Assembly: GCA_000996355.1 (NCBI GenBank)
Contig: LCAH01000007.1
Location: forward strand, 11,089 to 75,088
Direction: 5' to 3'
Length of the DNA: 64,000 nt
Source: Candidatus Uhrbacteria bacterium GW2011_GWC2_41_11
Lineage (GTDB): Bacteria; Patescibacteriota; Patescibacteriia; UBA9934; GWF2-40-263
Shown here: positions 21,498 through 62,178 of the stretch, piece after piece
How the letters are laid out: each line of letters begins with the position of its first letter
How positions within the stretch are numbered: position 1 is the first letter of the stretch
The notes under the pieces: model-generated
Database searches by the model: none
What the model was told of the DNA's origin: nothing
Seen by the model: only the letters and a program-made list of their open reading frames with translations
Translations under genes and position numbers: made by a program

Positions 21498-22485
21498 GAA
21501 AAAAAATCTTCAAGAAATTTCACATTCTCCGTCAGAAGTCATGTCTGTTCCAACAGATTCTTCTTTACCTCCATCTCATGTTCCGTCTGTTCGTCGATGG
21601 TTCCGTTGGCTTATTGGATCCATGATCGTTGTTTTTATTCTTGGGAGTATCGGAGCGGTGACGGTTGTTGTGTATATTCTCCCTCCGAGTGATCCTCTGG
21701 TCCGTAAAGTGACATCTGTGATTCCGTATCCGATAGCTCTTGTGAATCGTCAATGGATTACGTTTAAAGAATTTTATGCGGAACAAGATGCATTAAAACG
21801 TTTTTTTGAACAATCGCAGGAAGATGGTCAAACAGCTCCATCTGTTGACGAACTTCAATCAGATATTCTGGATACATTGATTGATAAAGCGGCGGTGCAA
21901 CAATTGGCAGACCGTTATGCAGTTTCGATTGATCAAAAACAAGTGGATGATCTTCTTGCATCCACGTATGCACAAAGCGGTTCGGAACAGGCATTTCTTG
22001 ATGAAGTACACAAAGTGTTTGGGTGGAATAAAGAGCAATTTACCGTTCGTGTTATTGAACCGATTGTCCTTGCTTCTCAGGTACGTGAAGCATTGCAAAA
22101 AGATACAACCATGCAAAGTGTGCCGCGAGCAAAAGTCGACGAAGCATTGGAACGTTTGAAAAAGAATGAATCCTTTGCAGATGTTGCAAAAGATGTAAGT
22201 GAAGATGCTTCTGCAGCAGAAGGCGGAGATATTGGATCGCTTCATCTTTCAGAAATGCCAGAGTCATTAGCAGCCATAATTCCAAGTTTAGAACCAAATG
22301 TTCCAAGTGATGTTCTTGAACTTTCTGAGGTGTATGCCATTGTGATGATTGGAGAACGTCCAGCAGAAGGAGAAGAAGATCCTTCTTATAAAATTTCTCT
22401 TATTATTGTAAACAAACGTCCTTTGGATGAAATAGTGACTGAATTTTTAGCTTCATCTCAAGTGACGCGATTTCTTAAAGGGTAA
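21478..22485 (+). CDS. SurA/PrsA-like parvulin peptidyl-prolyl isomerase
   Basis: TM anchor, IALVN, FADVAKDVSED...GGDIG. Confidence 0.88.
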   Translation: MGLFPLKKKNLQEISHSPSEVMSVPTDSSLPPSHVPSVRRWFRWLIGSMIVVFILGSIGAVTVVVYILPPSDPLVRKVTSVIPYPIALVNRQWITFKEFYAEQDALKRFFEQSQEDGQTAPSVDELQSDILDTLIDKAAVQQLADRYAVSIDQKQVDDLLASTYAQSGSEQAFLDEVHKVFGWNKEQFTVRVIEPIVLASQVREALQKDTTMQSVPRAKVDEALERLKKNESFADVAKDVSEDASAAEGGDIGSLHLSEMPESLAAIIPSLEPNVPSDVLELSEVYAIVMIGERPAEGEEDPSYKISLIIVNKRPLDEIVTEFLASSQVTRFLKG

Positions 22486-22550
22486 AAGACGAGACAAATC
22501 TGCTTGATCTCCAGTCTTCATTTTGATACGATCGCGGTCGTCCGTCTCTT

Positions 22551-22626
22551 GCCACTTTAGCTCAGTCGGTAGAGCAATGCTTTCGTAAAGCAGAGGTCCC
22601 GGGTTCGAATCCCGGAAGTGGCTCCA
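22551..22626 (+). tRNA. tRNA-Thr(CGT)
   Basis: GCCACTT/AAGTGGC acceptor stem, TT-CGT-AA loop, TTCGAAT T-loop, CCA. Confidence 0.93.
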
Positions 22627-22761
22627 ATAAAACAGCATAATATTACGTGCTGTTTTATTGTTGTTTTTTGACAAAAAGAATTAAGAATCATAGGATGTCT
22701 GATCTCTCCAGATTCTTTGGAGAGATGTCGGTGTCCTTTGAAATAAAAAATGGAGTAACAA

Positions 22762-23625
22762 ATGAGTGTTTTAAACGGATATTGTGATTTGATTGTAACA
22801 CCGGAACGGCGGAGTGCGGAACGATTGTTGGAAGATCAGGAAAGCAGTCGTCCTAATCGTCGAGTCATACCGCGATATATTCTTTCTTCGAACAATCCGT
22901 ATGGTTTTTTTGGACTGGATGATCCGGATCTTTCGACGTTTGCCGATCTCATTTGTACTTTTCAAAACGGGAGTCGAGAAACACATCCTGAACACGCAAA
23001 AGACATGGCTTTTCTTCCCATTGATCGGGCGCGACGGATTATTTTTGAGGGTGGAGCCCATGTATTCGTCCATGAAAAAGGAATGTGTATTGCCTGTTTC
23101 CTGATCGAGTGTCTCGGATCCTTCGGTTCGCATCTGGTTGTAAAAGGCGGATATCTCGCTACAAGGTCTCGGCTCGAGGTATTCGAGTTTCTCGACACGC
23201 TCCTTTTGCATCCGTATCAGGGTTGCTGGGTCGTGATACGAACATGGGATGGTCTGCGTTCCCTTTTTTCACGATTACTCAATGGAAAACATTTGTACGG
23301 ACCGTGGCTTGAGTACGGATATGAGGAATTTTCACACAAACTTCCTGCGATTTGGAATGACTATACATATGGAGGGAAGAAAGGAGACAATGGGAATCCT
23401 TTTCTCGTTCGTCCCCCTGTTGGTTTGGATCTTTCAGACGACATCCTGCCTGATTCTTTGTCTCCGGAAGATACGGAGTGGCTAAAGAAGCGGATGCAAC
23501 AACAATTATTTTCGACTGAGATTGCAGCGTTGATCCGTTATTATGCAACTATTGAACGAGCTGGGCGGCTTGGAAAATATTCTGTGCCGGATGTACGTTC
23601 TCTTGAATACGGAGATCGGATATGA
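22762..23625 (+). CDS. hypothetical protein
   Basis: 287-aa ORF, GGAG RBS, 4-nt overlap with the next gene. Confidence 0.75.
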   Translation: MSVLNGYCDLIVTPERRSAERLLEDQESSRPNRRVIPRYILSSNNPYGFFGLDDPDLSTFADLICTFQNGSRETHPEHAKDMAFLPIDRARRIIFEGGAHVFVHEKGMCIACFLIECLGSFGSHLVVKGGYLATRSRLEVFEFLDTLLLHPYQGCWVVIRTWDGLRSLFSRLLNGKHLYGPWLEYGYEEFSHKLPAIWNDYTYGGKKGDNGNPFLVRPPVGLDLSDDILPDSLSPEDTEWLKKRMQQQLFSTEIAALIRYYATIERAGRLGKYSVPDVRSLEYGDRI

Positions 23626-24452
23626 GCAAGTATTTGATGGATCAAGGCGGACACGACGAAGCAGCGCGTATGGCGAGAAATCATACTGCTGTGGAAATAT
23701 TCCGCTGGTTGCAAGAGGCTGGAATCAAGGAAGGAATGCGAACGCTTTCTGTCGGTCCTTGCAATCCGACGGAACTGTATGTGATTCACGAATTTACGCA
23801 TCAGCCTGTTGTTGGACTCGAACTTTCTCTTGATAGGGTACGTCAAGGGAATGAATCCGTAGTTTCCAAGTGGAATGAAGAACGGAAGAAAGGTTTATGT
23901 CCTATTGTTTTTGTCCCGGGAAATGTGCAGGATGTCCTTCCGTTTCAAGGAGAAACGTTTGATGCGGTCGTGTCTTTCCGTGTTTTTGAATACCTTTCCG
24001 ATCCAATCACGGCTCTGACGAATATGTTCCGATGTCTTCGTCCGGGTGGTTTGTGTGTGGTTGGGGACATTGACGGATACGGCTCGAATCATGAGGGAAT
24101 GCCTCCGGATCTGGAATGGACGCTTGCGTTGATTTTCCAGACGTTGGAAGAGCGCGGACAATTTCATCCGCGTATCGGGCGTCGATTGTATCGTCTATTT
24201 CATGAGTGCAAATTTACGGATTTGTGTGTGGCAGCAGAACCGTATCATTTGGTTGCAGGAACCATTTCCCCGCACGAAGAACAGAATTGGATGCAAAAGT
24301 TCGAAGCCATCCGTCCCGTTGGAGAAGAAATACTCGGGACACGGACCGCATATGACGAATTCGTGGAGGATATGATTCGTTTTTTACGGGATGAACGTAC
24401 GTTTGGCTATTCCATGTTCTTTCTTGTTACAGGTCATCGTCCAACTGAATAA
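23622..24452 (+). CDS. class I SAM-dependent methyltransferase-like protein
   Basis: LPFQGETFDAV, LRPGG; motif I degenerate (LSVGPCNP). Confidence 0.82.
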   Translation: MSKYLMDQGGHDEAARMARNHTAVEIFRWLQEAGIKEGMRTLSVGPCNPTELYVIHEFTHQPVVGLELSLDRVRQGNESVVSKWNEERKKGLCPIVFVPGNVQDVLPFQGETFDAVVSFRVFEYLSDPITALTNMFRCLRPGGLCVVGDIDGYGSNHEGMPPDLEWTLALIFQTLEERGQFHPRIGRRLYRLFHECKFTDLCVAAEPYHLVAGTISPHEEQNWMQKFEAIRPVGEEILGTRTAYDEFVEDMIRFLRDERTFGYSMFFLVTGHRPTE

Positions 24453-24496
24453 CACGATCCAAGGATTTCTTTCCTTGGTTTTTTGTTTGAATTTTA

Positions 24497-24525
24497 TTGA
24501 CAAATTTTTTTTCTTTATCTAGGGT
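24497..24525 (+). promoter_or_regulatory. sigma70-type promoter of the MVP-like gene
   Basis: TTGACA-17 nt-TAGGGT. Confidence 0.5.
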
Positions 24526-24620
24526 TTGAATCTCTGAAAGATGGTTATTTTCTTTATAATAAAGAGATGCCATTTTGCAGAGGTTCCATTTATGAGCTCT
24601 TTTTCAGAAAGGAATTGGAA

Positions 24621-27185
24621 ATGCCAAATTACGAAGCAACGCAGGGAAGGGATGGTAGGGAGAGTAGGGAACTCGTTCTTACTCATAACGAGTTTGTTTA
24701 TGTTCAGGATGACACAAAAGGGCAAGTCACGACCTTGGTCGGACCGTCTACAAAGCAGCTGGCACAGTCGGAAAAACTTGTCATGTTCAATGAGCAAACA
24801 GGAAGGTTCGAGCGCGTGGATAATATTACCCGTGCGGTCTCTATTTTCCCGTTTGCTCCGGAAGGATCCTACATTGTCCTGACAAATCCGGCGCACGATG
24901 GTGGCAAGGCGCATCCTGAAGCAGGTGTGTGCTATTTGCCCGACGTCGATTGGGGTCGTAAGATCAATCTTCCAGGACCGGTCACATTTGCTTTGTGGCC
25001 AGGTCAGACCGCTCAGGTACTCGAAGGTCATCACCTTCGTTCCAACCAGTATCTGATCGTGCGGGTTTACAACGAAGAACATGCTCTCTCCAACTGGTCC
25101 AAGTCCGTTGTCCGTCGCGTGGAAGGTGGAACAGATAAGAAAAGGTCGACTGTTGAAGAGTCTGCGGCAACGAAGCAGTCAGCGCCCACGGATCTGACAA
25201 TGGGCAAGCTCTATATCATAAAGGGCACGGAAGTCTCTTTCTACATTCCGCCTACCGGTGTGGAAGTCGTGCCTGATCAGGACAACCAGTATGTCCGTGA
25301 CGCAGTCACGCTGGAAACGCTGGAGTATTCGATTCTCAAGGATGAGAACGGAAAAAAGCGTTATGAGCGTGGTCCACAGGTCGTTTTTCCAGCAGCCACT
25401 GAAACCTTCATTGAGGATGGAAATGAGCGCAAGTTCCGTGCCATTGAGCTGAATCCGGATATGGGCATTCATATCAAGGTCATTCAGTCTTATGAGGAAG
25501 GGGAGGGTGACAACAAGAAGACTGTGAAGGTCGGTGAGGAACTTTTCGTCACTGGCAAGCAGACCTCTATTTACTTTCCGCGTCCCGAGCATGCCATCAT
25601 CAAGTATGGTGATCGCGATCGGCATTATGGAGTAGTCATCCCTGAAGGGGATGCTCGGTATGTTCTCAACAAGACGACAGAAGCTATCGAGCTTGTGCGT
25701 GGCCCCCAGATCTTTCTGGCTGATCCGCGTTCTCAGATCATTGTGAAACGCGTTCTCGATCTGCAAACAGTAAACCTGTGGTATCCCAGCAATCGGGAAG
25801 CTCAGGCGTACAACGAGCGGCTTCGCAGTATGAATGAAGGCAGTCGTCAGTTTGTGACTGATGAAACCGTTCGTGGTGCACAACGGGGAACAGAATCCAA
25901 GGGTTCTGCGACCTCTGATACCATGCAGCGCGGGACGGCTTTTACTCCGCCGCGCTTCATTACGTTGGACAACAAATATGACGGCGCCGTCCAGGTTTCA
26001 CCCTGGTCCGGCTATGCCATTCAGGTGGTGTCCAAGACCGGCGAACGCAAGGTCATCATGGGTCCGGCAACCGCGACTCTGAAATTCGACGAAACGCTCG
26101 AGATTCTCGAGCTTTCGACCGGCACCCCGAAGGGTGACGAGCGGCCGATTCGGACCGTTTATCTCAATGTCTCAAACAATAAGGTGTCGGATCGTGTGAA
26201 TGCCGAGACCAAGGACCTGGTGCCTGTTCAGGTGACGCTGTCATATCGCGTTAATTTTGAAGGCAATTCGTCCAAATGGTTCTCCGTGTCAAACTACATC
26301 AAGCTTCTCACCGAACATCTGCGCAGCGTCATCCGCGGCGTGGTCAAACAGTTTGGCATCGAGAGGTTCTATGATGAAGCGACTCCTATTCTTCGTGATG
26401 CCATTTTGGGCGAACATCCTGATCAGGGTAAGCGTCCGGGTAAGATGTTTGAGGAGAATGGGATGAACATCTACGATGTCGAGGTTCTCGACGTTAAGAT
26501 AGATGATGAGGAGATTTCAACACTCATCGAACGCGCCCGCAGAGCGGCGGTGCAATCCAATCTCAGTGTGGTCGAAAGGGAGCGTCAGCTCGAAACTACT
26601 CGGAGGTTGGAAATCATTAATCAGGGGATCAAGGCCGCGCAGACGGAAACGATCCTCAAGAACGCCGAACAGGATGCCAAGGCGGAACAAACCAAGGCAG
26701 CGTTCGTCTCTGAAACAGCGATGAAGAGGTTGGCACTCGAAGTAGTGCTGATGGTTGAAGATCTGAAACTTGGATTGACCAAGATTGATGCGGAAGCCCA
26801 ACAGGTTGCAGAACGCAACAAGTCAGCATTGGTCAATCAGAGAGCAACCGATGAGTTGATTCAAATCCGTCTGAAGACCGAGAAAGTTCAGGCAGACCAG
26901 AGGCAGGAAATTGAGGAGCGTGATCAGCAGCTCAAAATCCAACTCCTTGAGACGGAAGCCAAGGCATTCGTTGAACGTATGAAGGCTCTTGGACCCGAGT
27001 TTGCGGCCGCACTGGAGAAATTCGGCGATCATCAGTTTGCGGCAGAACTCGCCAAGGCTCTGAGTCCGCTTGCCATTGCCGAACAGCAGGGAGTTTCCCA
27101 CATTATGGATCGTTTGTTCGGTCAGGACTCTGCAGTCAGTAAGATGTTGACGACTGCGTTGACTACAGGCGATAAGCGTAAGTAA
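24621..27185 (+). CDS. major vault protein (MVP) homolog, 854 aa
   Basis: Vault-type repeats (LTHNEFVYVQD..G....LVGP; LETLEYSILKDENG....RGP), AIQVVSKTGERKVIMGP...LELSTGTPK, SPFH-like shoulder DRVNAETKDLVPVQVTLSYRVNF, long C-terminal helix. Confidence 0.85.
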   Translation: MPNYEATQGRDGRESRELVLTHNEFVYVQDDTKGQVTTLVGPSTKQLAQSEKLVMFNEQTGRFERVDNITRAVSIFPFAPEGSYIVLTNPAHDGGKAHPEAGVCYLPDVDWGRKINLPGPVTFALWPGQTAQVLEGHHLRSNQYLIVRVYNEEHALSNWSKSVVRRVEGGTDKKRSTVEESAATKQSAPTDLTMGKLYIIKGTEVSFYIPPTGVEVVPDQDNQYVRDAVTLETLEYSILKDENGKKRYERGPQVVFPAATETFIEDGNERKFRAIELNPDMGIHIKVIQSYEEGEGDNKKTVKVGEELFVTGKQTSIYFPRPEHAIIKYGDRDRHYGVVIPEGDARYVLNKTTEAIELVRGPQIFLADPRSQIIVKRVLDLQTVNLWYPSNREAQAYNERLRSMNEGSRQFVTDETVRGAQRGTESKGSATSDTMQRGTAFTPPRFITLDNKYDGAVQVSPWSGYAIQVVSKTGERKVIMGPATATLKFDETLEILELSTGTPKGDERPIRTVYLNVSNNKVSDRVNAETKDLVPVQVTLSYRVNFEGNSSKWFSVSNYIKLLTEHLRSVIRGVVKQFGIERFYDEATPILRDAILGEHPDQGKRPGKMFEENGMNIYDVEVLDVKIDDEEISTLIERARRAAVQSNLSVVERERQLETTRRLEIINQGIKAAQTETILKNAEQDAKAEQTKAAFVSETAMKRLALEVVLMVEDLKLGLTKIDAEAQQVAERNKSALVNQRATDELIQIRLKTEKVQADQRQEIEERDQQLKIQLLETEAKAFVERMKALGPEFAAALEKFGDHQFAAELAKALSPLAIAEQQGVSHIMDRLFGQDSAVSKMLTTALTTGDKRK

Positions 27186-27203
27186 GTAACCCATCAAATA
27201 TTT

Positions 27204-27239
27204 CCGCGTCAGATGTTTATTCGTCTGGCGCGTTTTTTT
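27204..27239 (+). terminator. intrinsic terminator
   Basis: CGCGTCAGATG...CGTCTGGCGCG followed by T tract. Confidence 0.7.
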
Positions 27240-27279
27240 GTGTAAACAAAAAAACCTTGAGAATGTATCAAGGTTTTTT

Positions 27280-27353
27280 TGGAGCGGGTAACGGGAATCG
27301 AACCCGTGACTACTGCTTGGGAAGCAGTCATTTGACCACTAAACTATACCCGC
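27280..27353 (-). tRNA. tRNA-Gly(CCC)
   Basis: Reverse complement reads GCGGGTA...ACTGC-TTCCCAA-GCAGT...GGTTCGATT...TACCCGCTCCA. Confidence 0.93.
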
Positions 27354-27399
27354 GCTTGTCAGAGCTTTTCCATCAGGATTATAATGAAACATATCTTCT

Positions 27400-28185
27400 A
27401 TGACAAGATTATATTTTTCGATCTTTTGTTTCTTTTTTCTTTTTTCTTCCTTTCCTCTTTTTGCACAAGCTACAGAAGAAACATCCACCGAAACCGTTCT
27501 TTCCACGTTTTTTGATGCGGAAACCATTGTGAAAGGGTATACCCTTTCCTCGGATGATGGTCGTATGCGTTTAGGAATTCGTCCAGGTACACTTGCAGAG
27601 GCGACACGTGTTGATATCAAGACACTTGCTCCGTCTGTGATGAATGGAACATATCCAACCGATGCAACACTACTTGGAAATGTTTATCTTTTCGATATTA
27701 CAAATAAAACAAGTTATACAGGTGAAGATTTCTTTTTTTTGGAAATAAAATATTTAGAAGAGATTTCATATTCTTCCACACTTTTCGGTCGTCGATTTCT
27801 TGCTTTTTACAATGGAGTGACAGAAAAATGGGAAGAACTTCCGTCTTCAGATAATCCTGATAAACAACTTGTTCAGGCATTGATTTATTTGCCTTATGCT
27901 CGTCTTGCGGTGTTTCAGGAATCTGTGCCTGAATTTGGAAAAGCAAGTTGGTACGCATATAAAGAATGCGATTGTGCAGCGTCTCCGGATTATGCAAAAG
28001 GGACATATCTTGTTGTGAGTCGTACAGAAGATCCGACAAAAGCGGTGACGGTTCGTGTCAACGATTATGGTCCAGATCGAAGTGTACATCCTGATCGTAT
28101 TATTGATCTTGATCGTATTGCTTTTCAAAAACTTGCTTCGCTTGGTGCGGGTGTCATCAATGTTCAAGTAAAATTTTTGCAATAA
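27400..28185 (+). CDS. secreted protein with C-terminal RlpA-like (DPBB) lytic transglycosylase domain
   Basis: Signal peptide; GKASWY, VRVNDYGP, RIIDL. Confidence 0.85.
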   Translation: MTRLYFSIFCFFFLFSSFPLFAQATEETSTETVLSTFFDAETIVKGYTLSSDDGRMRLGIRPGTLAEATRVDIKTLAPSVMNGTYPTDATLLGNVYLFDITNKTSYTGEDFFFLEIKYLEEISYSSTLFGRRFLAFYNGVTEKWEELPSSDNPDKQLVQALIYLPYARLAVFQESVPEFGKASWYAYKECDCAASPDYAKGTYLVVSRTEDPTKAVTVRVNDYGPDRSVHPDRIIDLDRIAFQKLASLGAGVINVQVKFLQ

Positions 28186-30063: not shown

Positions 30064-31206
30064 ATGAAAAATCAGACTCCGGTGTGCCGTTCAGTCTCTG
30101 TCCAGATCCAGAATAAGGATGAATGGACAAAAAGACAAAACCCATTCGTCCAGGTGAAATCTGTCCCTGGAGACAGGGAAGTCCCAGTCAGTCGATTTGT
30201 GGAAGCTGTCCTTCCTGGTAAGGCGATCGAGTTTCTCGGTCGTGAGACCATGAAGGGAGTTTCTTCGTATAAAAATATGACGCCTTCCAGCTTGTTTTTT
30301 CAAGCGGTACATGAGGCATTCGCGAAGCATTATCCTCTGGCTCTTCGGCCTGAGGTTCTCATGTATCTGATCTGTCATGAGGTGGCAACGGCCGTGAAAC
30401 TTCATCCGGAAGATTATCGGTCGCTCTTCACCACGACCGAAGGCAAGGAGACAATCGAAATTCGGCACGACAGTCTCCGCCGTGGAGATCCGATGAGTCC
30501 ATGGTCCGAGGCTTTGGCTTTGTTTGATCCGGCTCTGCGCGAGCGAGTTCCGGCCGGGATCATGAAGCAGATGCTTCCAGTATTTTCGACAGCGACGCCG
30601 GAGACTACGGCGGCTTCGATGATCGTGTTTATGGACGCGGCGAGTCCATTTTACGATTACCGCGTCGACACCTTGTGTGGCTTGCCCGAGATTCGCCTGC
30701 TCGGTACTGCGAAGGATTATCAGAAGATCCTTGCGGCCGCGCGGGAGCTTGCCAAGCTGTTTGGTAAGCATCTCGGGCTGTATTTTCAACACCTCCTGCC
30801 CGTGCTCGAGACATTGGCTGAGCAGGCCGCTGGAGCTCCAATCGACGACCTCTTTTGGAAGTCGATTTACAAATTCAACTCCCGGTCGGGAGGAAGCAGA
30901 TTCAACGGTTGGATCACGGCTTTTCTGAATTACATTCAGACGCCGGAGTTCGATAACGGATTTGATTCTTCCAAAGGCGGGCTCGTTCAGAAGGACGAAC
31001 GTCTTTTCGATTGGAATCCGGAAGAAAGGATTTCTATGCCAGGTCTCTCAATAGGATCCGTCCCCTCTCACGTTTCGGCTGTGCCGTTCGTGTGGAACTA
31101 TTTCGAGACCGAGATTCCGATGACGTTCATCGGTGGTGTGCTCGGTATCGATGTTGAGGACGGATATCTGACCCCGGTACTTTCATTCGGGGTTCTGGAG
31201 CAGTAA
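30064..31206 (+). CDS. DUF4419-like protein
   Basis: AFAKHYPLALRP, FSTAT, CGLPEIRLLGT, FWKSIYK, GWITAF. Confidence 0.75.
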   Translation: MKNQTPVCRSVSVQIQNKDEWTKRQNPFVQVKSVPGDREVPVSRFVEAVLPGKAIEFLGRETMKGVSSYKNMTPSSLFFQAVHEAFAKHYPLALRPEVLMYLICHEVATAVKLHPEDYRSLFTTTEGKETIEIRHDSLRRGDPMSPWSEALALFDPALRERVPAGIMKQMLPVFSTATPETTAASMIVFMDAASPFYDYRVDTLCGLPEIRLLGTAKDYQKILAAARELAKLFGKHLGLYFQHLLPVLETLAEQAAGAPIDDLFWKSIYKFNSRSGGSRFNGWITAFLNYIQTPEFDNGFDSSKGGLVQKDERLFDWNPEERISMPGLSIGSVPSHVSAVPFVWNYFETEIPMTFIGGVLGIDVEDGYLTPVLSFGVLEQ

Positions 31207-31303: not shown

Positions 31304-31377
31304 TCCGGGATCGTCTAATGGCAGGACAGCGGCCTTTGAAGCCGTGAATCGTGGTTCGAATCCACGTCCCGGAGCCA
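31304..31377 (+). tRNA. tRNA-Gln(TTG)
   Basis: TCCGGGA/TCCCGGA acceptor stem, CT-TTG-AA loop, CCA. Confidence 0.94.
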
Positions 31378-31596: not shown

Positions 31597-31854
31597 ATGT
31601 TTTATGTTTACGTTTTATGGTGTGCAGATAAAAAGTTTTATATAGGATATACAGAAGATTTAAAGAAACGTATTGTTCTCCATAAAAAAGGACTTGTGAT
31701 TTCAACACATCCACGTTTGCCAGTTCGTCTTATTTTTTATGAGGTATATTTGAATAAATACGATGCATTACGACGAGAAATTTATTTGAAAACCAGCAAA
31801 GGAAAGACGACTTTAAAGAGTATGTTGCGTGAATTTTTATCGAATTTATTATAG
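31597..31854 (+). CDS. stand-alone GIY-YIG nuclease
   Basis: FYVYVL...FYIGYTEDLKKR...ALRREIYLK. Confidence 0.93.
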   Translation: MFYVYVLWCADKKFYIGYTEDLKKRIVLHKKGLVISTHPRLPVRLIFYEVYLNKYDALRREIYLKTSKGKTTLKSMLREFLSNLL

Positions 31855-51014: not shown

Positions 51015-51122
51015 GTTTTTCCTCCTTCTTTTTGGTAAAACCCAAGTCGCCCGACCATGGAATCAGAAAAAATGGAAAAAAGCAATTTTTTTCTTTATAC
51101 TGAAGACAGTATTTTGTATTAT

Positions 51123-54100
51123 ATGGGCATATTTGGCAGGGAAAAAGGACCGCTTTCCGAACCGTCTGAGCCGCGAGAATCCGAACCAAAGAAATACGAA
51201 AATCACACAACTGAGCGGAGCGGCGGGCATTCTCATGAACAACACACGGCAGAACCGGTTCTCGAAAAGGATCGCGCGCATTTTGATGCAGAAGAACAGC
51301 ATCTGCGAAATTTGATTGACACATTGCAGGACCGGACGGAAAAATTGCAGGATGTCGAATTGGAAAAGAGAGTAGAATCTGTTCCTGTGCGCAGAACATT
51401 CGTGCAAACCATAGAGACCGTTAAAAAAAAGATTGCGGAATGGTTTGCCGCGCGCAAGGAAAGAGTGTTGGATAAAAAAATTAAAACCGTTTTAAAATTT
51501 TATTCCTTTGCGAAAGACGGAATTCGTCTTGATGCGAAAGAATTAGTCGAGCTTGTTCGTGGACTTTCAGAGACACAGGTGGAAAGACATCCTGATCTTA
51601 TTGAATCCGCAAGAAAACAGTTTGTTGACTCTCTGGAAAGATTAACAAAATATCGTTTTTATTCCCCGTCAAACGACTATGACTTTCAGAGTATTCAACA
51701 TGTCACGGACCTTTTTTATTCGCAGCCAGTTATTTTCGAATCTTTTTTTCAGGATGAGCACGTGCAGACGTTACAGGACAAAATTTTTACTTCCGCTCTT
51801 TACACGGGTCAGTTGCTCGCTTCTGATATAGGAAAGAGAATAAGGATGCGTCCGGAACGCATGAAGGAACTTGCTGCGCAGGCTTTGTGTGATACAGTCA
51901 AAAATTTATCCGTGCGCGATGCGGATCTCGTGTATGATGTGAAAATATTGATCAAGGATTTTCATGTCGATCAGGAAACCGTCGATGCGGTTGCCTTTCA
52001 ATACGTCTTGGACAATCTTACATCCGATTATCCGTATAAATCCGCGGAAGATGTCCAGGAGTTTTTCGGTCTTTCGGAAGAATCCTTTCAAACGCTGATG
52101 CAACATCACAAGGAAACGTTGAAACCTCTCTGTTACAAAGCTGCGGCAAACGCCTTGATACATTCCGGGAATCCGATCCATTCGGTTGGAAAAATTCTCA
52201 CTGCTTTTAAAATTCCGGAAGTCGACATAAACGGATTCAGAGAATTTTTGTCCGCTTGTCCGGAAAAGGTCGAGGAAACGGTTTTAACGCGGCTTACGCG
52301 CGCGGATTTTTCCGAAAAGATGGAATCCTTTTTTACAACGCTTATTCCTGTCCATGAACTCATCCGCGAAGAGAAAGGGCAAGCGGCCGTGCGCAAAGGA
52401 CTCCATCACCTCATCAGTGAACATCCATCATTTCTTCACACGCTTCGCGCCTACATGGAACGATTTGGATTGAATCCCGAGACTCTTCGATCGGATCCGG
52501 AAACATTCCAGAGTGTGAGACACGGAGTCGCCAAGGAACTTGTCGCTGAAACTTTTGTCTGGCCTTCTCGGGAATTTTTTGATTTTTTTGGCATTTCCGA
52601 GGAGCAGTTGCGAATCTACATTGAGATTAGTCGAAAGATCACGGATTCGCCTTCCCAAGAGGTTCAAAAGCTACGTGATGCCCTGATTGTCCAATTGCTC
52701 GATTCGGAACGTCCGGTCGAGGACTACGAAAAGATCGAATCCATTTTTTTAAAAAACAACATTCCGACCGTGGGGAAATGTTACGGCGTTTTTGAGGTTC
52801 TTTATCCACCGAAACGGTTGATCGAGAAAATCGGAACTCACTCAAGTCCCGTGTTGCAACAGGCTGGTTCTCGGAAAAGATACGCGATCTTGTATCAGGA
52901 TCTGCTGAGAATTCATATAGAGTCAGGAAACCGTTCCTTGAAGGAATATGCCGAAGTTTTGCAGGAAGGATCGGATCTCCTTGTCAAATATGAACGCGAC
53001 GGGTTGACCGGGTTAGACACAAAGGAACGTGAACGACTGTGTGTATTTGTTGGAAAATTAGAAACATTGCTTGCGAAGTCCGCGTTGGATACGGCGCCGG
53101 AAGCGTTTCAGGTCGCACGTCTCGCCGATCTGGAAAAACGGATCGTGCACGTACGCAAAGGGCTCAAAGTGCGGGTGGAACAGAGTGTACTTGAGCGTAT
53201 TTCCGAAATGTTCCTGCGTCCGGCCGGTGTCTCAAGCATGGAAGAATTGCTGGAACGTATGCGCTCGACCAGACAGGCGGCGGATGAACGGAATCGAAGA
53301 TCTGTCGCGAACAAAAGAGAAAAACGAAACACAGAGGAACCTATTTTTGACTTGCAGGTCGGAGATTTTCTCAAAGGTGTTGATATCCAGTACATTTCCA
53401 ACATTCTCCAAAACGGCTCGGTGGCAAAGGAATTCCTTGGTGCGAGTTCGGATTCTGACAGCACGCCTCTGGATACGGATGTAAGCATGGTTTCCGCGGA
53501 AGACGCGCAGGGTGGATTCGAGCATGCGGTTTACAAATCATTGGCAAAAGATTATGGAGATTTGTTATTTTGTCTGAGAGACCGCGGACAATACCAACAT
53601 ACGGAATCATCAACACCAGTCGAGAGAGATCGAGATAAATGGGAACTGTTTAAAACTGGTGTCGTTAGTGAATACCATTACGGTATCCGAACCGGATTTC
53701 CCTCGACGCAAATTGATTTCATGATTGTGAAGACTGGATTGAGCGTTGATACAAAAGCGCTTGAGCGTCTGTTTTTTGAAATCGCAAAAAATGGGTTTTA
53801 CATTCCCGTGGTTGATTTCAGTGGAAAAATAATTTTGTCACCAGAAGCGTACGACGGTTACCGCGCTTGTTTTGCTGGGTTGGAATCGTTCGATGGTCCT
53901 CCGCTTGCATTCCAACCGGTCGTGTCGGGAGATCGTTCATATGAAAAGATCATGAAACTTATGGTTTCTGTTGCAGAAGATCGTGAAAGAGTTCAAGAAA
54001 CAACTGTTGGGATTCATCGTGAATTGGAACAGATCTTGGCTGGATTAGGAGTAAGACTTAGGTCAGAATTCGACACAAGCATTCTTGGTGCGGAGTTATC

Positions 54101-54770
54101 TGATATTGGATCAACAGGACGACATACGAATATGCCTGGAGATTTTGATTTTGACTTCAGTTTAAAATTGGACGCGAAGGATTTTTCGCGTGCGCAGGAA
54201 TTGGCTGAAACGATCAAAGGAGCCATGTTGATGAAAACGGATGATTCGCATAGGGAAGAAGAAGGATATTATCAACTTCGGGTAAAGGGAGTGACAAGGT
54301 TAGGTTCTCTTCATTTGAAACAACCGCTGGATATTGATATTGGTTTTTCTCGAAAAGCGGATATGAACGTTTATGGATCCCATGATGCCTTGCGTGACAA
54401 ACTTCACATGATCGAAAAGACATACGGAGAGCAAGCTCGCGACCAAGTGCTTGCGAATATTGTGTTTACCAAACAAATCTTAAAACAGGGAAATGCATAC
54501 AAAAAACAAGAACACGGCGGAATGGGCGGGGTGGGAGTGGAACATTGGATTCTGGCAAATGGAGGAAATATGGAAACAGCTTTTCGTCGTTTTCTTGAAG
54601 CAGCTTATGAAGAGAAAAAACGAATTCCATATGAAAAATTTAGAGAAAAATATCACGTGATGGATGCGGGGATAAATGTAAAATTTATGGTCCACGATGA
54701 TTTTATTCGTGTGCTCAAACCATCTGGGTATGCGGCTATGTTGGATGTGATTGAAAAGTATTTTAAGTAG
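51123..54770 (+). CDS. large protein: helical N-terminus, putative ART-like domain, C-terminal Pol-beta-superfamily nucleotidyltransferase
   Basis: IGSTGRHTNMPGDFDFDF and DIDIGF (NTase); FLKGVDIQYISNILQNG...HYGIRTGFPSTQIDF (ART-like); start chosen at MGIFG. Confidence 0.75.
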   Translation: MGIFGREKGPLSEPSEPRESEPKKYENHTTERSGGHSHEQHTAEPVLEKDRAHFDAEEQHLRNLIDTLQDRTEKLQDVELEKRVESVPVRRTFVQTIETVKKKIAEWFAARKERVLDKKIKTVLKFYSFAKDGIRLDAKELVELVRGLSETQVERHPDLIESARKQFVDSLERLTKYRFYSPSNDYDFQSIQHVTDLFYSQPVIFESFFQDEHVQTLQDKIFTSALYTGQLLASDIGKRIRMRPERMKELAAQALCDTVKNLSVRDADLVYDVKILIKDFHVDQETVDAVAFQYVLDNLTSDYPYKSAEDVQEFFGLSEESFQTLMQHHKETLKPLCYKAAANALIHSGNPIHSVGKILTAFKIPEVDINGFREFLSACPEKVEETVLTRLTRADFSEKMESFFTTLIPVHELIREEKGQAAVRKGLHHLISEHPSFLHTLRAYMERFGLNPETLRSDPETFQSVRHGVAKELVAETFVWPSREFFDFFGISEEQLRIYIEISRKITDSPSQEVQKLRDALIVQLLDSERPVEDYEKIESIFLKNNIPTVGKCYGVFEVLYPPKRLIEKIGTHSSPVLQQAGSRKRYAILYQDLLRIHIESGNRSLKEYAEVLQEGSDLLVKYERDGLTGLDTKERERLCVFVGKLETLLAKSALDTAPEAFQVARLADLEKRIVHVRKGLKVRVEQSVLERISEMFLRPAGVSSMEELLERMRSTRQAADERNRRSVANKREKRNTEEPIFDLQVGDFLKGVDIQYISNILQNGSVAKEFLGASSDSDSTPLDTDVSMVSAEDAQGGFEHAVYKSLAKDYGDLLFCLRDRGQYQHTESSTPVERDRDKWELFKTGVVSEYHYGIRTGFPSTQIDFMIVKTGLSVDTKALERLFFEIAKNGFYIPVVDFSGKIILSPEAYDGYRACFAGLESFDGPPLAFQPVVSGDRSYEKIMKLMVSVAEDRERVQETTVGIHRELEQILAGLGVRLRSEFDTSILGAELSDIGSTGRHTNMPGDFDFDFSLKLDAKDFSRAQELAETIKGAMLMKTDDSHREEEGYYQLRVKGVTRLGSLHLKQPLDIDIGFSRKADMNVYGSHDALRDKLHMIEKTYGEQARDQVLANIVFTKQILKQGNAYKKQEHGGMGGVGVEHWILANGGNMETAFRRFLEAAYEEKKRIPYEKFREKYHVMDAGINVKFMVHDDFIRVLKPSGYAAMLDVIEKYFK

Positions 54771-54849: not shown

Positions 54850-55575
54850 TCAGAAGACCGCGAGCTCGGGTTCGGGGCGACACTGGATCCCGATCGATCC
54901 AGAGTGCCGAGCCCACTGGCGACCGCGGTATGACCGCTCAGCCCCTTGTTGCGTATCGTGCCAGACCTGCATTTTAGGTTCCGGCACGTCGAACTTCTCG
55001 ACCAGGTCGAGGTGCTCGACCGCTTCCTGGGCGTGAACCTCGAACATATTCTCAATTCGGGCTTGACGCTGGCGAATACGAGAAAAGTACGAGTCATCGG
55101 CCGGAACCCCCCAATCGAGGTTTTCCTCGAAATGAGGACCCGACGATAAGTAACCATCTGAGTCCGAAGCCTGATAATCCTCACTCGGATCATAGGCCTC
55201 GTCCCATTCGTCCTCGATTTCTTCGCCATCAAAAGTGGCAAAGGTTTCGAACGAGTCCGCGTAGGTATCCTCTCCATCTTCGAGGTTCTCGAGGACATAC
55301 CCATCCTGTTCGGCTTCGTCCCATTGCTCGTCCCACTCGTCTTCTTCGAGTGGACCCCAACCGAGAGGTCGAGCATTGAGATGATCCTCAGACACCTCAG
55401 AGATGTCGAACCAATCACGGTTCGAATCTTTCCGAGAGGCAGGGCTGTCCCAGCCCAGATTTTCGAAGGCAATATCCTCAAAATCCGGAGAGTTTGCGTC
55501 TCCGATGGCAATGGTGCCATCATCATTGAAACGCAATTCCTTGACCGCTGACTCAGTCGACTGACGTCGCGCCAT
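54850..55575 (-). CDS. highly acidic hypothetical protein, paralog A
   Basis: AAGGAG RBS, TTGACA promoter on minus strand; shares motifs with 55931-57166. Confidence 0.8.
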   Translation of the reverse strand: MARRQSTESAVKELRFNDDGTIAIGDANSPDFEDIAFENLGWDSPASRKDSNRDWFDISEVSEDHLNARPLGWGPLEEDEWDEQWDEAEQDGYVLENLEDGEDTYADSFETFATFDGEEIEDEWDEAYDPSEDYQASDSDGYLSSGPHFEENLDWGVPADDSYFSRIRQRQARIENMFEVHAQEAVEHLDLVEKFDVPEPKMQVWHDTQQGAERSYRGRQWARHSGSIGIQCRPEPELAVF

Positions 55576-55722
55576 GAAGACCTCCTTGAAATGTTGGATG
55601 GCCGGAAATCGGCCTAAAAACGAACTAAATCAAAAAATTATCGATATGTATAGATTATCAGAAAATATAGATTTTGTCAATGGTGTTTGACAATAATTTG
55701 GAGTTCCACCGCGTAATACAAA

Positions 55723-55875
55723 TAAGACTTTCTCAGTTTCGACCAGTTTGTGTGCACGGGGTGCAAGTTTTATCGAGCTGTACTAAATAGTACAGCGAGA
55801 AAAACTTGGGTCCCCGTAAGCCATGCACCATCCGATGCATGGTAAACCCAAAATGGGCAAAATGAGAAAGTCCTA
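55723..55875. mobile_element. TA-flanked ~150-bp palindromic MITE-like element, copy 2 (inverted relative to copy 1)
   Basis: TA-AGACTTTCTCAGTTT ... AAAATGAGAAAGTCC-TA. Confidence 0.8.
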
Positions 55876-55930
55876 ACAAAAAACAAAATCCCCGCGTTTG
55901 ATGAAACAAACACGGGGAAGGGTTTTGGGT

Positions 55931-57166
55931 TTACGCCGCGACTTGGGTGTTTACCCGGGTCAGTAGGCGGCGGTTTCGGTTTCGACGAAGACGACGATTT
56001 CGATCGTCAAAGACATCCGTGAGGTCGAACACCTTCATTCCTTTTTGGAGTTCGTCTTCATGCTCGCCCCAGCCATCGTCGATCTGAACCTTTTGAACCG
56101 TTCGATACCACCAGAGGTTCCACTCATGGTAAATATCTTCCAATTCCAAGGTTCGAATGTCTTTCGGAATTGAGGCGTACTCGGGCCAGGCTTTTTTTAT
56201 CCACTGATCCCAAAGTTCTTCCTCAATCCGTTCTTCTCGATACAACTCTATCTCAGTCATCCGAATGCGACGATCTTCCTCGTCGTTGGCTGAGTATTCG
56301 TCATCGTAGTACTCATCGTAGTACTCATCGTAGTAATCGTCGTAGTACTGGTTGTGATTCCAGTCCCAGTAATCCGACGGGCTCAAGTAATCTCTACGTG
56401 GTTCCCCCTCGGGAATATACCACCAATCATTCGTCGACTTGGTGGTTGACAGGTGCCGATATTCCGTCCACCAGGTCGGAGGAGGATAGAAACAGGCATC
56501 ATTGCTGGTGGCATTCACCCACCAATCTGGAAGAGAATCGAGATAGTATGCCTCTTCCTCCTCGAAAATCCACGGATTGTCCCAATCGCCATCAGACAAC
56601 CCGAACCACATGGTTCGAGCCTCTGTTACATGGTCGCGACCGATCCACTGTTCGATTTGATCGATTCGCGAAGGAGAAGGAAGAAAGCGTTTGGTCTCCT
56701 GGAGTTGAACCTCGCAGGACCAAGCCTCATACTCAGCCCGGAAGTCTTCCACGTCGCGCACATTCTCGCGCGCCCACTGCGGACCGCGATAATTGCGATG
56801 ACCGACAATGTAATCGCGACCGTCGCGTTCTTTTCGCTCTCGACACCACGGAGCAGTAAAACGATGCTTGCCGTGTGTGCTATGCTCGGCGAACCGCTTT
56901 ATGAATAGCGGTCGCGGTTTGTCAGCGATTCGGTCGAACTTCTCGACGAGATCGGTGTATTCAACCGCGTCCTGAGCACGAGCCAGAATGAGATCCTCAT
57001 TGCGCTGTTGACGCCTGAGGGTTTTTTCATTTGGCTGTTGCGGATAAAACGCCCAATCGGAATATTCGTCATATTCCGGATCCTCATCATCCCGTCTATC
57101 GAAATCTTCCTCGATTCCAAATTCGGAATCTTCGAAAAAGCGATCGAAATCTGCAGATGCTGCCAT
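55931..57166 (-). CDS. acidic Trp/Tyr-rich hypothetical protein, paralog B
   Basis: GAGGAG RBS; AQDAVEYTDLVEKFD and RNYRGPQWAR shared with paralog A; Arg-rich C-terminus. Confidence 0.8.
   Translation of the reverse strand: MAASADFDRFFEDSEFGIEEDFDRRDDEDPEYDEYSDWAFYPQQPNEKTLRRQQRNEDLILARAQDAVEYTDLVEKFDRIADKPRPLFIKRFAEHSTHGKHRFTAPWCRERKERDGRDYIVGHRNYRGPQWARENVRDVEDFRAEYEAWSCEVQLQETKRFLPSPSRIDQIEQWIGRDHVTEARTMWFGLSDGDWDNPWIFEEEEAYYLDSLPDWWVNATSNDACFYPPPTWWTEYRHLSTTKSTNDWWYIPEGEPRRDYLSPSDYWDWNHNQYYDDYYDEYYDEYYDDEYSANDEEDRRIRMTEIELYREERIEEELWDQWIKKAWPEYASIPKDIRTLELEDIYHEWNLWWYRTVQKVQIDDGWGEHEDELQKGMKVFDLTDVFDDRNRRLRRNRNRRLLTRVNTQVAA
56301..56348. repeat. 12-bp tandem repeat x4 (encodes YYD[DE])
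   Basis: TCATCGTAGTAC units. Confidence 0.85.
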
Positions 57167-57287
57167 TCGTTTCTCCTCGGTGTTTTTTTGTTAAAGAGAG
57201 CAGTAAGAGAGTATCTGAAAATGAAGGTTTTGTCAAGTTTATATAACAAAAATCCCTCCAGAAAGATCTGGAAGGGAAATAGATTCT

Positions 57288-58397
57288 TTAAAAAATCGCG
57301 GAAAGAAGTGCTGCAGTTACAAACACATCAACCGGATTCCACGGATCGTAGTAACCAATGGGTGAATAACCATAGTATTCATACCCATAGCCCCATACAG
57401 GTGTCTCGACCGCCTCGGTCACGGTTTTGTAGACTGTATTCTCTTGTACCGTTCCTTTAAACAGACCGAAGTTCAAGTATGCGCCGCAACCGCGACATTT
57501 CCGCTGATTGCGGGAAACGCCACTGCCACAGTTCGGACACTCGTATTCAGTCGACGGAACAGGCGGCGGTTCAAACGATGCCTCGCAGTTCGGGTTCGGA
57601 CAATATGTGAGCTCTCCACCATTTTTTCTTGCTTCCTGTTCGAAAATAGCAAGGGTAATTCCACAGTGCGAACACTGTGTCCCGTCCCTCTTTTGCTGTT
57701 CGATCATGCCGGCTGTGTACAAGTCTTGCATGATGAGTGTCGCGGCGTCCTGGTTGAGATTCATTGGCGGATGCAGTAGATCCTCGATTCGGTACGCACT
57801 CTGGACGATCTCCTCGATCTGTTTGAAGAACGTTCCAACCCGGAGCTTGAACCAGAAGTCGTTTCCACGGAACTCGCGGTCCACGAGTTTTTGAATAAAG
57901 ACCACCAGGTTCGGATCGATTTCAACTGCGCCGTCAGGATGCATCATCCCCATGAATTCAATCATGGCAATGCGCATATCCGTGGCGGTCGGATCGTTTT
58001 CTCCATGCTTCACGAATCTTGGGTCGTATATGTCGTCATACACGAAATTCGGATTGTCTCCGTGTTCGTGATTTTCGAGTCTTCTTTGCATGCGCACGCC
58101 GTTGAAGATCTCAAATGGCAAAAGCCTGTCTGTGAGCTCCACCATCTTTTTCAGGAACTCCCGGCCTTGCGTGGTGATTGTCCAGTGTAGGCCGTCTGAA
58201 GCGAGATCGAGGAGTGCATCCCGATTCATCTGCATGAGAATCGGTTCCACGAACTGGCCGTCCTCATGATTCAGATGGATGATCTCCATCTTTTCTCCGA
58301 ATTCCGCAATTCGATAGAGAATGGCGAGGTACACGCACTTGCGCCACCATTCCGGTTTCTTCGAAAAGGTATCAGAAGTCATTGGTGATAAGGTCAT
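57288..58397 (-). CDS. hypothetical protein with C-terminal Zn ribbons
   Basis: CSHC, CPNPNC, CPNC, CRGC; Tyr/Gly-rich tail; N-terminal wHTH-like ITTQGREFL. Confidence 0.8.
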   Translation of the reverse strand: MTLSPMTSDTFSKKPEWWRKCVYLAILYRIAEFGEKMEIIHLNHEDGQFVEPILMQMNRDALLDLASDGLHWTITTQGREFLKKMVELTDRLLPFEIFNGVRMQRRLENHEHGDNPNFVYDDIYDPRFVKHGENDPTATDMRIAMIEFMGMMHPDGAVEIDPNLVVFIQKLVDREFRGNDFWFKLRVGTFFKQIEEIVQSAYRIEDLLHPPMNLNQDAATLIMQDLYTAGMIEQQKRDGTQCSHCGITLAIFEQEARKNGGELTYCPNPNCEASFEPPPVPSTEYECPNCGSGVSRNQRKCRGCGAYLNFGLFKGTVQENTVYKTVTEAVETPVWGYGYEYYGYSPIGYYDPWNPVDVFVTAALLSAIF

Positions 58398-58486
58398 ATT
58401 TTTTTCCTTCCTTTTCTGAACCCTCAAGAAAATGACCCCGCGCAGGACAATTGCATACGGGGTCAAAGATCTGGTTCTTGTGCCAC

Positions 58487-59554: not shown

Positions 59555-59736
59555 GGCGACTCCTTTCTTTTGTTGTCAATGGACATTCGCTACCAGCATT
59601 TACTGGCACGAAGCGGTCGTATAGTAGCAAGTTTTATTTATTTGTCAATAGTTTGACAAAATAGTTGATCTAAGATAGATTCTTTGGTCCGAATAGATCT
59701 TTTTCAATTGTGAGAAATTCAAAAAAGGAGACGTTC

Positions 59737-60840: not shown

Positions 60841-60956
60841 GAGGCAGTTCAATTTTTGCCCCGTGTCAGTGTTTGACGCGGGGTTTTATATTTTGGCGGG
60901 ATGAAATCAAAAACAAAAAAAGACCTCCTGAATGGAAGTCCGTCTGCGAGTTTGTT

Positions 60957-62159: not shown

Positions 62160-62178
62160 GATAGTCCTTCCTCCTTTT

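What the first reader, a model, noticed from the sequence alone, without database searches (positions are those of the whole stretch)
24621..27185. Full-length major vault protein homolog in a probable CPR bacterium
Seen: 854 aa with N-terminal vault-like repeats, the MVP-like segment AIQV...KVIMGP...LELSTGTPK, an SPFH-like shoulder and a ~200-aa C-terminal helix. This matches the size and domain order of eukaryotic MVP. It is a stand-alone unit with promoter, SD and terminator. Established: eukaryotic vaults are 78-mer barrels about 70 nm long, and bacterial MVP-like sequences are known but their assembly and function are largely unresolved. Inference: a vault-like compartment would occupy a large part of an ultra-small cell and could serve storage, membrane-stress or defence roles.
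Basis: partly seen in the sequence, partly recalled or inferred. Interest (0 to 1): 0.78.

Follow-up and report, generated by a model that had tools for sequence, protein, structure and literature searches.

The report
Seven-repeat vault protein in small-genome bacterium
A small-genome Patescibacteria (CPR) bacterium carries an intact gene for a relative of the protein that builds the giant eukaryotic vault cage; it belongs to an already reported group also found in other bacteria and many very large phages, is predicted to have seven repeats instead of nine, and likely forms a shorter hollow cage that nobody has yet been shown to see.

Summary
The 854-aa ORF is real and is a major vault protein (MVP) homologue along its whole length. 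Pfam, profile and fold searches rank vault structures first, and the N-terminal model superposes on vault repeats (Z 17, 3.6 A over 285 residues). The host is a 1.07-Mb Patescibacterium. It is not unique: it belongs to the divergent bacterial/phage MVP clade already in print, with over 2,000 relatives. It sits in a tRNA-flanked, GC3-high patch, is full-length in 0 of 60 relatives, and groups with large-phage copies, so it was likely acquired sideways. No partner gene is conserved; TROVE and DUF4062 were not found in the genome. The lysine that binds NAD+ in the human vault is kept in 144 of 144 relatives. Most likely a stand-alone, shorter, vault-like cage with a nucleotide pocket; assembly is untested. 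This scan noted similar genes in other CPR genomes before.

The parts
24621..27185 (+). Gene for the 854-aa MVP homologue (96 kDa, pI 5.7)
24497..24525 (+). Probable promoter, TTGACA-17-TAGGGT (inferred; below the scan's threshold)
   Evidence: sequence; not listed; pattern enriched genome-wide
24610..24613 (+). Shine-Dalgarno-like AGGA, 7 nt before the ATG
   Evidence: sequence
24459..24478 (+). Terminator-like hairpin closing the upstream methyltransferase gene
24657..24794 (+). Repeat a (aa 13-58), R1-like, type A; followed by an extra hairpin and short helix
   Evidence: (weak)
24834..25025 (+). Repeat b (aa 72-135), R2-like
   Evidence: weak sequence bridge via L150 (E 0.025)
25020..25274 (+). 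Repeat c (aa 134-218), type B; the single counterpart of eukaryotic R3-R5; carries a variable insertion at aa 164-190
   Evidence: c vs e E 4e-4; insertion conservation 0.30
25296..25436 (+). Repeat d (aa 226-272), R6 equivalent, type A
25434..25604 (+). Repeat e (aa 272-328), R7 equivalent, type B
25623..25982 (+). Repeat f (R8 equivalent, from aa 335) with helices, a variable insertion (aa 401-430) and a conserved loop holding invariant R437
25983..26174 (+). Repeat g (aa 455-518), R9 equivalent, with the keyhole loop S499-x-G-x-P503-K504
26175..26504 (+). MVP shoulder (SPFH-fold) domain, aa 519-628
26508..26987 (+). Cap helix, aa 630-789, low confidence kink at 683-695
26988..27167 (+). Conserved C-terminal helices (cap-ring region), aa 790-849; start aligns with the rat segment near residue 803-814
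   Evidence: conservation 0.76
27205..27232 (+). Intrinsic terminator-like hairpin
22551..22626 (+). tRNA-Thr(CGT), left edge of the variable patch
27280..27353 (-). tRNA-Gly(CCC), right edge of the variable patch
22762..24452 (+). Two other patch genes (287-aa unknown; 276-aa SAM methyltransferase); no evidence of a functional link

Best explanation
The gene encodes a major vault protein homologue, predicted to have seven repeats, that likely self-assembles with no partner into a hollow vault-like cage somewhat shorter than the eukaryotic one, likely binds a nucleotide such as NAD+, ADP-ribose or ADP in a pocket between neighbouring subunits, and was likely acquired sideways from a large phage or a phage-linked source. 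Shown here: homology of repeats, shoulder and cap helix; stand-alone gene; patchy distribution; conservation of the keyhole lysine. Predicted: seven repeats in the order A-A'-B-A-B-A-A against A-A'-B-B-B-A-B-A-A in mammals. Inferred from the eukaryotic vault: subunits pack side by side through repeats, shoulder and cap helices into a ring or dome (about 70%); two domes join at repeat 1 into a closed barrel (about 50%); the pocket binds a diphosphate nucleotide (about 45%). Inferred from distribution: the cage most likely acts in phage-host conflict or stress by enclosing or buffering molecules (about 30%); which side it serves in this host is open.
For: Foldseek: the 12 best rows are full-length vault chains, E 5e-30 to 4e-24, against 2e-8 for the best non-MVP SPFH protein. 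VIA: Z 18-21 for 10 vault entries against 12.2 for the best SPFH entry (rmsd 37-85 A because domain orientation in the full model is poor, pTM 0.44). N-terminal model, pLDDT 84.7, pTM 0.77: residues 15-377 superpose on vault residues 5-319, Z 16-17, rmsd 3.6 A, 285 aligned; best unrelated chain Z 3.5. Profiles map the later repeats to human 275-410, 377-422 and 457-656, leaving three repeats opposite human 1-274, which holds five (MVP3-5 = 102-274, PMC12280208). Cap helix of 160 aa and a conserved C-terminal segment; about half of the lateral contacts in the human vault are in the cap helix (PMC13347060). No membrane anchor: highest 19-residue hydropathy 1.27. Keyhole S499, P503, K504 and D524 in 144 of 144 aligned relatives (80 bacterial, 64 of 67 viral loci); K504 aligns with human K506, which salt-bridges the NAD+ diphosphate (PMC12280208). 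No neighbour family recurs in more than 9 of 80 bacterial loci and none sits next to the gene in most. Sideways origin: GC3 0.564 against 0.326 +/- 0.087 (97th percentile of 427 genes); tRNA flanks; full-length gene in 0 of 60 relatives while murD is matched in 60 of 60; tree puts it, with two unnamed proteins, sister to 7 viral contigs, SH-aLRT 98 (FastTree 0.989).
Against: No assembly has been observed for this clade in the papers I could search. Identity to mammalian MVP is low (15-22% in structural alignments), and the first three repeats give no sequence match to MVP on their own. The human waist residues (I36, Q38, D39, N40, R42) are not kept in the weak R1 alignment. Of the human pocket, R504, R507, H509, R511, W545, P565 and K573 align with other residues here (T502, G505, E507 or a gap, I510, V544, S557, E565); the match of invariant R437 to human R437 is by spacing only, since no profile aligned that loop. 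The tree is a short search without bootstrap, its root is arbitrary, and the two nearest proteins are unnamed, so direction of transfer is not established. Large-terminase PF03237 was not found in 5 of 5 sister viral records; their viral status rests on IMG/VR and on phage-type neighbours.
Confidence: 0.55

Rival explanations
1. It works like a classical SPFH protein (flotillin, HflK/C, prohibitin): an open dome that sits on the inner membrane and fences off a patch of lipids and proteins, with the repeats as an extension rather than the wall of a closed barrel.
For: The shoulder has the SPFH fold (Z 10-12). A minority of Dictyostelium vaults (14 of 999) bind membranes (PMC13100048). A Band_7 gene lies directly downstream in 5 of 67 viral loci and an FtsH gene in 1 of 80 bacterial loci (L061). 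Human waist residues are not kept.
Against: No transmembrane or strongly hydrophobic segment; the position where SPFH proteins carry their anchor is taken by repeats; vault entries score far above SPFH entries; the Band_7 neighbours are 64-82% identical to one of them, so largely kin; the genome has three other Band_7 genes; repeat a is among the most conserved parts (0.84), as expected of an interface.
Confidence: 0.2
2. It is a phage accessory gene that landed between two tRNA genes and does nothing useful for this host; its real job is in infected cells.
For: 67 viral loci carry it; all 50 records tested scale to at least 100 kb and 39 of 50 to at least 200 kb; nearest ESM Atlas clusters are 46-62% viral; only 3 of 401 phylum genomes, the host included, pass the Pfam cut-off; viral sister group.
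Against: Intact frame, own Shine-Dalgarno and terminator, and most family-invariant residues kept; long terminal branch (0.34) without decay; the patch holds only a methyltransferase and an unknown ORF, with no phage-type Pfam or NCBIfam match; the stretch is held at half its words or more in five studies besides the two that include possible source runs.
Confidence: 0.15
3. It is a storage body: the particle itself is a reserve of amino acids or nucleotides for an auxotrophic cell (the hypothesis of Shaik as relayed by Sokolskyi 2019 and Santos 2023).
For: CPR bacteria lack many biosynthetic pathways (own knowledge); many carriers are predatory or gliding bacteria (22 of 201 genomes in the Enhygromyxa phylum); a nucleotide pocket could buffer NAD+ or ADP.
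Against: About 1% of Patescibacteria sampled carry it, although most share the auxotrophy; invariant basic residues around one pocket suggest a specific ligand rather than bulk storage; does not explain carriage by very large phages.
Confidence: 0.1

Closest known systems
Divergent bacterial MVP homologues of Plesiocystis pacifica, Enhygromyxa salina, Microscilla marina, Saprospira grandis (Daly et al. 2013, PMC3762200, passages read; Sokolskyi 2019, bioRxiv 10.1101/872010, parts 1-2 of 3 read)
   Same: Same clade: 44-47% identical over nearly the whole length to Enhygromyxa and Plesiocystis proteins; about 25% to eukaryotic MVP in Daly et al.; assembly only modelled.
   Different: Host is a non-gliding-type, 1-Mb Patescibacterium; groups with viral copies rather than with the Myxococcota/Bacteroidota set. 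The passages I read do not count repeats or mention a keyhole loop.
Phage MVPs of ctOa11 and ct2Ri15 (Santos et al. 2023, bioRxiv 10.1101/2023.11.10.566534, parts 1-3 of 4 read)
   Same: About 22.8% to human MVP, about 43% to bacterial hits, about 810-820 aa, no TEP1 or vPARP: by these figures probably the same clade (their sequences were not compared here).
   Different: That paper reports two gut phages; here 67 viral loci, mostly very large genomes including 462-kb and 735-kb records.
Eukaryotic major vault protein and vault (rat 4V60/4HL8, human 9BW5/9MXJ, rabbit 9Z4W; Lodwick et al. 2025, PMC12280208, passages read)
   Same: Repeat fold, shoulder, cap helix, C-terminal segment, keyhole S-x-G-x-P-K.
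   Different: Seven repeats against nine; only one of the R3-R5 type that binds PARP4; two variable insertions; waist residues differ; most other NAD+ contacts replaced; no TROVE, DUF4062 or vault RNA found.
Five-repeat MVP homologues of Asgard archaea (PMC12962969, passages read) and Borg vault-like proteins (bioRxiv 10.1101/2024.11.05.622173, passages read)
   Same: Prokaryotic or mobile-element MVP with fewer repeats (Asgard); ring or cup assembly predicted only.
   Different: The five-repeat type, also present in 2 of 36 same-family genomes (L150, L204), is closer to eukaryotic MVP (E 1e-67) and only 24% identical to this clade.
SPFH cages (flotillin, HflK/C, prohibitin, stomatin, QmcA)
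   Same: SPFH domain followed by a long helix (Z 10-12).
   Different: They have a membrane anchor and no vault repeats; this protein has the reverse.

Membership tests
MVP family (homology) | N-terminal tandem MVP repeat domains | tested here: met
   Z 17.2, rmsd 3.6 A, 285 residues; Foldseek E 9e-14; profile E 7e-6
MVP family (homology) | MVP shoulder domain after the last repeat | tested here: met
   PF11978 E 6e-26 and PF17795 E 4e-8, both over cut-off
MVP family (homology) | Long cap helix and C-terminal cap segment | tested here: met
   helix 630-789 predicted; aligns with rat 650-814
Divergent bacterial/phage MVP clade (Enhygromyxa/Plesiocystis type) | Full-length similarity above about 40% to named members, about 20-25% to eukaryotic MVP | tested here: met
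   44-47% over about 820 aa; 15-22% to vault chains
Eukaryotic-type vault shell | Nine repeats R1-R9 | tested here: not met
   six repeats in aa 15-377 plus one at 455-518; three repeats opposite human 1-274
Eukaryotic-type vault shell | R3-R5 surface that docks the PARP4 MINT domain | tested here: not met
   one type-B repeat in that position; site defined in PMC12280208
Eukaryotic-type vault shell | R1-R1 waist contacts (F6, I7, I36, Q38, D39, N40, R42) | tested here: inconclusive
   residues differ but the R1 alignment is below significance; the clade conserves its own set, e.g. D51 in 133 of 144
Eukaryotic-type vault shell | Keyhole nucleotide pocket (R437, R504, K506, R507, H509, R511, D521, W545, K573) | tested here: inconclusive
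   K506 equivalent 144 of 144; R504 equivalent is K in 45 of 64 viral but T here and in 73 of 80 bacterial; most others replaced
Eukaryotic-type vault shell | Self-assembly into a 78-mer closed barrel | not testable with these tools
Eukaryotic vault ribonucleoprotein | Minor components TEP1 (TROVE, DUF4062), PARP4, vault RNA | tested here: not met
   TROVE and DUF4062 not found in the 99%-complete genome, controls positive; PARP search had no positive control; no vault RNA in 22400-27400 (rest of genome not scanned)
Membrane-anchored SPFH proteins | Membrane anchor N-terminal to the SPFH domain | tested here: not met
   highest 19-residue hydropathy 1.27, in the cap helix; repeats occupy that position; lipid anchors not tested

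The most novel reading that the evidence does not exclude
Seven-repeat vaults are a real prokaryotic organelle spread largely by jumbo phages, and their conserved keyhole pocket binds NAD+ or ADP-ribose-type molecules, so the vault began as a tool of phage-host conflict that shelters cargo or buffers NAD+-based immune signals; repeat number (5, 7, 9) sets cage height, and eukaryotes added two repeats that became the PARP4 dock.
Probability: 0.2. Interest if true: 0.85.

Novelty: new member of a known kind. Interest (0 to 1): 0.45.

Why it matters
What vaults do has been open for about 40 years, and no bacterial or phage vault has been imaged in the papers I could search. This gene is a minimal test case: one ORF, no PARP4, TEP1 or vault RNA found, expressible in E. 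coli. The added value from this work is a set of sharp, testable points for the whole clade: seven repeats, loss of the PARP4-docking repeats, an invariant keyhole lysine, and strong presence in very large phages. The gene itself is not special among its roughly 2,000 relatives, which caps the score.

Tried and rejected
Conserved partner gene: all-against-all comparison of 1,951 ORFs from 150 loci and the window found none; the top recurring cluster included antisense frames, the next was Ser/Thr kinases in 9 Myxococcota-type loci. Link to phage tRNA arrays: tRNAs lie within about 6 kb in 23 of 67 viral loci, but in a paired test 8 of 20 against 4 of 20 control stretches from the same genomes, p 0.29: rejected. 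General link to TROVE/Ro60: 9 of 50 viral records, 41 without: not a required partner. Circular permutation, suggested by the hit of aa 14-53 to rat R8: rejected, repeats a, d, f and g are simply the same type. Sequence-only match of the first three repeats to PDB: none to MVP among 18 weak hits. Alignment of the R437 loop to human: not obtained. NCBIfam and PHROGs have no family for the protein. No RNA holder listed among sequencing runs, so expression is unchecked. Not obtained: the deep representative search, cluster membership of the two nearest proteins, a homologue search with the five-repeat protein, and read support across the patch and its empty site in other strains, which stayed unchecked. 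Literature searches with no paper: 'bacterial vault', 'major vault protein' + 'Patescibacteria'; searches listed no experimental study of a prokaryotic vault. The library lacks most subscription papers, and preprint supplements were closed; the Santos and Sokolskyi supplements may list CPR members or repeat counts.
Full report
Observation. The ORF at 24621-27185 translates to 854 aa without a stop. Pfam gives MVP_shoulder (519-628, E 6e-26) and Vault_3 (471-515, E 4e-8) over cut-off, and all 7 PDB sequence hits are MVP. A Shine-Dalgarno-like AGGA precedes the ATG; a strong terminator follows and another hairpin closes the upstream gene. The promoter was not picked up by the consensus scan, but TTGACA-17-TAGGGT is present, and this pattern is about 2.7 times commoner in the genome than in shuffles (126 against 38-52). 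The genome is 1.07 Mb in 27 contigs, 99% complete, and shares a class with a genome whose MVP is at zero tree distance from a protein named Ca. Magasanikbacteria, so Patescibacteria is well supported. murD on the same contig is 68-69% identical to genus and family relatives, so the contig is native.

Anatomy. The full-length model (pLDDT 76.8, pTM 0.44) ranks vault chains first by Foldseek (E 5e-30) and VIA (Z 21 against 12 for SPFH proteins), though its domain orientations are poor. A model of residues 12-462 from 129 relatives is much better (pLDDT 84.7, pTM 0.77) and superposes residues 15-377 on vault residues 5-319 (Z 16-17, 3.6 A, 285 residues; best unrelated chain Z 3.5). That is six repeats; the Vault_3 repeat makes seven. 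Profiles tie the last four to human R6, R7, R8 and R9 (275-410; 377-422 and 457-656), so three repeats stand opposite human 1-274, which holds five (repeat numbering partly recalled; MVP3-5 = 102-274 from PMC12280208). Profile comparison sorts the seven into type A (a, d, f, g; pairwise E 3e-4 to 5e-3), type B (c, e; E 4e-4) and an outlier b; type-B profile segments hit human 118-161, about 211-262 and R7. So the missing units are two of the R3-R5 type, the PARP4 dock. The first three repeats have no significant sequence match to MVP by themselves; their assignment rests on the fold. Length is made up by variable insertions at 164-190 and 401-430 (conservation 0.30 and 0.34 against 0.73-0.87 for repeats). 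The cap helix runs 630-789 and is followed by conserved short helices. There is no membrane anchor.

Repeat number varies in nature. Two of 36 same-family genomes carry a different, about 600-aa five-repeat type, closer to eukaryotic MVP, and two Myxococcota-phylum proteins of this clade skip one further block (L185, L186).

Pocket. In the human vault NAD+ and ADP bind between neighbouring SPFH domains behind a keyhole loop, with K506 and R511 at the diphosphate (PMC12280208, passages); ADP-ribose was seen there too (bioRxiv 10.64898/2026.05.01.722283, passages). Here S499, P503, K504 (= human K506) and D524 are kept in 144 of 144 aligned relatives (80 of 80 bacterial and 64 of 67 viral loci with a long ORF). 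The R504 position is K in 45 of 64 viral copies but T in this protein and 73 of 80 bacterial ones. Most other human contacts are replaced, while other basic residues are near-invariant (R437, R568 144 of 144). Ligand binding is therefore plausible, not shown.

Distribution and origin. 2,146 of 8,000 scored candidates are relatives, the best 120 at 45-53% identity; 334 of 350 pattern hits in species genomes encode one, the best 80 mostly Myxococcota, Bacteroidota, Riflebacteria and Vulcanimicrobiota; 22 of 201 genomes of the Enhygromyxa phylum have the shoulder family against 3 of 401 over cut-off in the host's phylum, host included. 67 viral loci carry it; of 50 tested, all scale to at least 100 kb and 39 to at least 200 kb by CheckV completeness, a rough figure for fragments; 462-kb and 735-kb phage records carry it, 3 of 50,697 GenBank phage records; the three nearest ESM Atlas clusters are 46-62% viral. 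In the host the gene has GC3 at the 97th percentile, lies with two other genes between tRNA-Thr and tRNA-Gly, and is full-length in 0 of 60 relatives; the first patch gene is matched in 2 of 60. On a 59-row tree chosen from a 150-row one, it groups with two unnamed proteins, sister to seven viral contigs (SH-aLRT 98), apart from the Myxococcota/Bacteroidota set. Sideways gain is likely; a phage donor is plausible, but the root is arbitrary and PF03237 terminase was not found in 5 of 5 sister records, whose neighbours are nonetheless phage-type.

Partners. None is conserved. TROVE and DUF4062 were not found in the host genome with working controls; the PARP search had no positive control; no vault RNA near the gene. 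In viral records a Band_7 gene follows directly in 5 of 67 loci, largely kin, and TROVE/Ro60 occurs in 9 of 50 records, close by in three; tRNA adjacency failed a paired control.

Mechanism. The best reading is a self-assembling, soluble, vault-like cage, shorter by two repeats, with an inter-subunit nucleotide pocket, probably acting in phage-host conflict or stress. Homology and distribution are shown; repeat count is predicted; assembly, closure, ligand and role are inferred. Rivals are an open SPFH-like dome on the membrane, a passenger phage gene, and a storage body.

Known or new. The clade is in print: Daly 2013 (PMC3762200, passages), Sokolskyi 2019 (parts 1-2 of 3) and Santos 2023 (parts 1-3 of 4); Borgs also encode vault-like proteins (passages). 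PMC13100048 and PMC13347060 were read as passages. Searches found no paper joining MVP and Patescibacteria and no experimental prokaryotic vault, within a library that lacks most subscription papers. Earlier scan notes report similar genes in other CPR genomes. Verdict: new member of a known kind, interest 0.45; the seven-repeat architecture, the invariant keyhole lysine and the jumbo-phage spread are the parts worth following.

Noticed in passing
L150 739-2556; L149 547-2427 (= L204 2261-4141): Two genomes of the host's own family carry a five-repeat, about 600-aa MVP much closer to eukaryotic MVP (E 1e-67 to human), each beside a gene that reads like an MTA/SAH nucleosidase (by eye; not scanned).
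   Followed up: partly
L101 2586-4310; L142 3075-4709; L125 10604-12271: A TROVE/Ro60 gene lies within about 3 kb of the vault gene in three viral records (the L125 match is below cut-off), echoing the TROVE domain of TEP1 in eukaryotic vaults; 9 of 50 records have one anywhere; no matched control.
   Followed up: partly
L101, L118, L120, L124, L134, directly downstream of the vault gene: A 600-640 aa Band_7 (SPFH) gene with an N-terminal hydrophobic segment follows the vault gene in 5 of 67 viral loci.
   Followed up: partly
L205 7971-10409 (LR756501.1): A 735-kb phage record encodes a full-length member (46% over the matched part); the record has no annotation.
   Followed up: partly
L185 1627-3741; L186 1737-3758; L187, L192, L193, L195-L197: Myxococcota-phylum variants of this clade: a shortened 674-705 aa form lacking a repeat block, and 890-970 aa forms with an 80-140 aa insertion between repeats c and d; some genomes have two copies.
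   Followed up: partly
L096, L099, L103, L104, L109, L115, L123: A 213-267 aa protein with no Pfam match lies next to or near the vault gene in 7 related viral loci.
   Followed up: no
window 54850-62198: A second GC-rich patch: acidic Asp/Glu/Trp-rich ORFs (54850-55575, 55931-57166), a zinc-ribbon protein (57288-58466), a Ser/Thr-tailed lipoprotein-like ORF (58487-59554), a binding-protein/channel-like ORF (59710-60840) and a Band_7 gene (60957-62198); labels by eye except Band_7.
   Followed up: no
window 30064-31206: DUF4419 gene with GC3 at the 98th percentile, next to tRNA-Gln (31304-31377) and a short ORF that reads like a GIY-YIG protein (31597-31854, by eye): another tRNA-linked insertion.
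   Followed up: no
window 51057-54770: 1,237-aa protein with a long helical N-terminal part and a C-terminal part that reads like a nucleotidyltransferase (by eye; not scanned).
   Followed up: no
L136 4742-11588: The viral vault gene sits among QueC-like, GTP cyclohydrolase and TGT-like genes, a 7-deazaguanine modification cluster, with a GIY-YIG homing endonuclease directly downstream.
   Followed up: no
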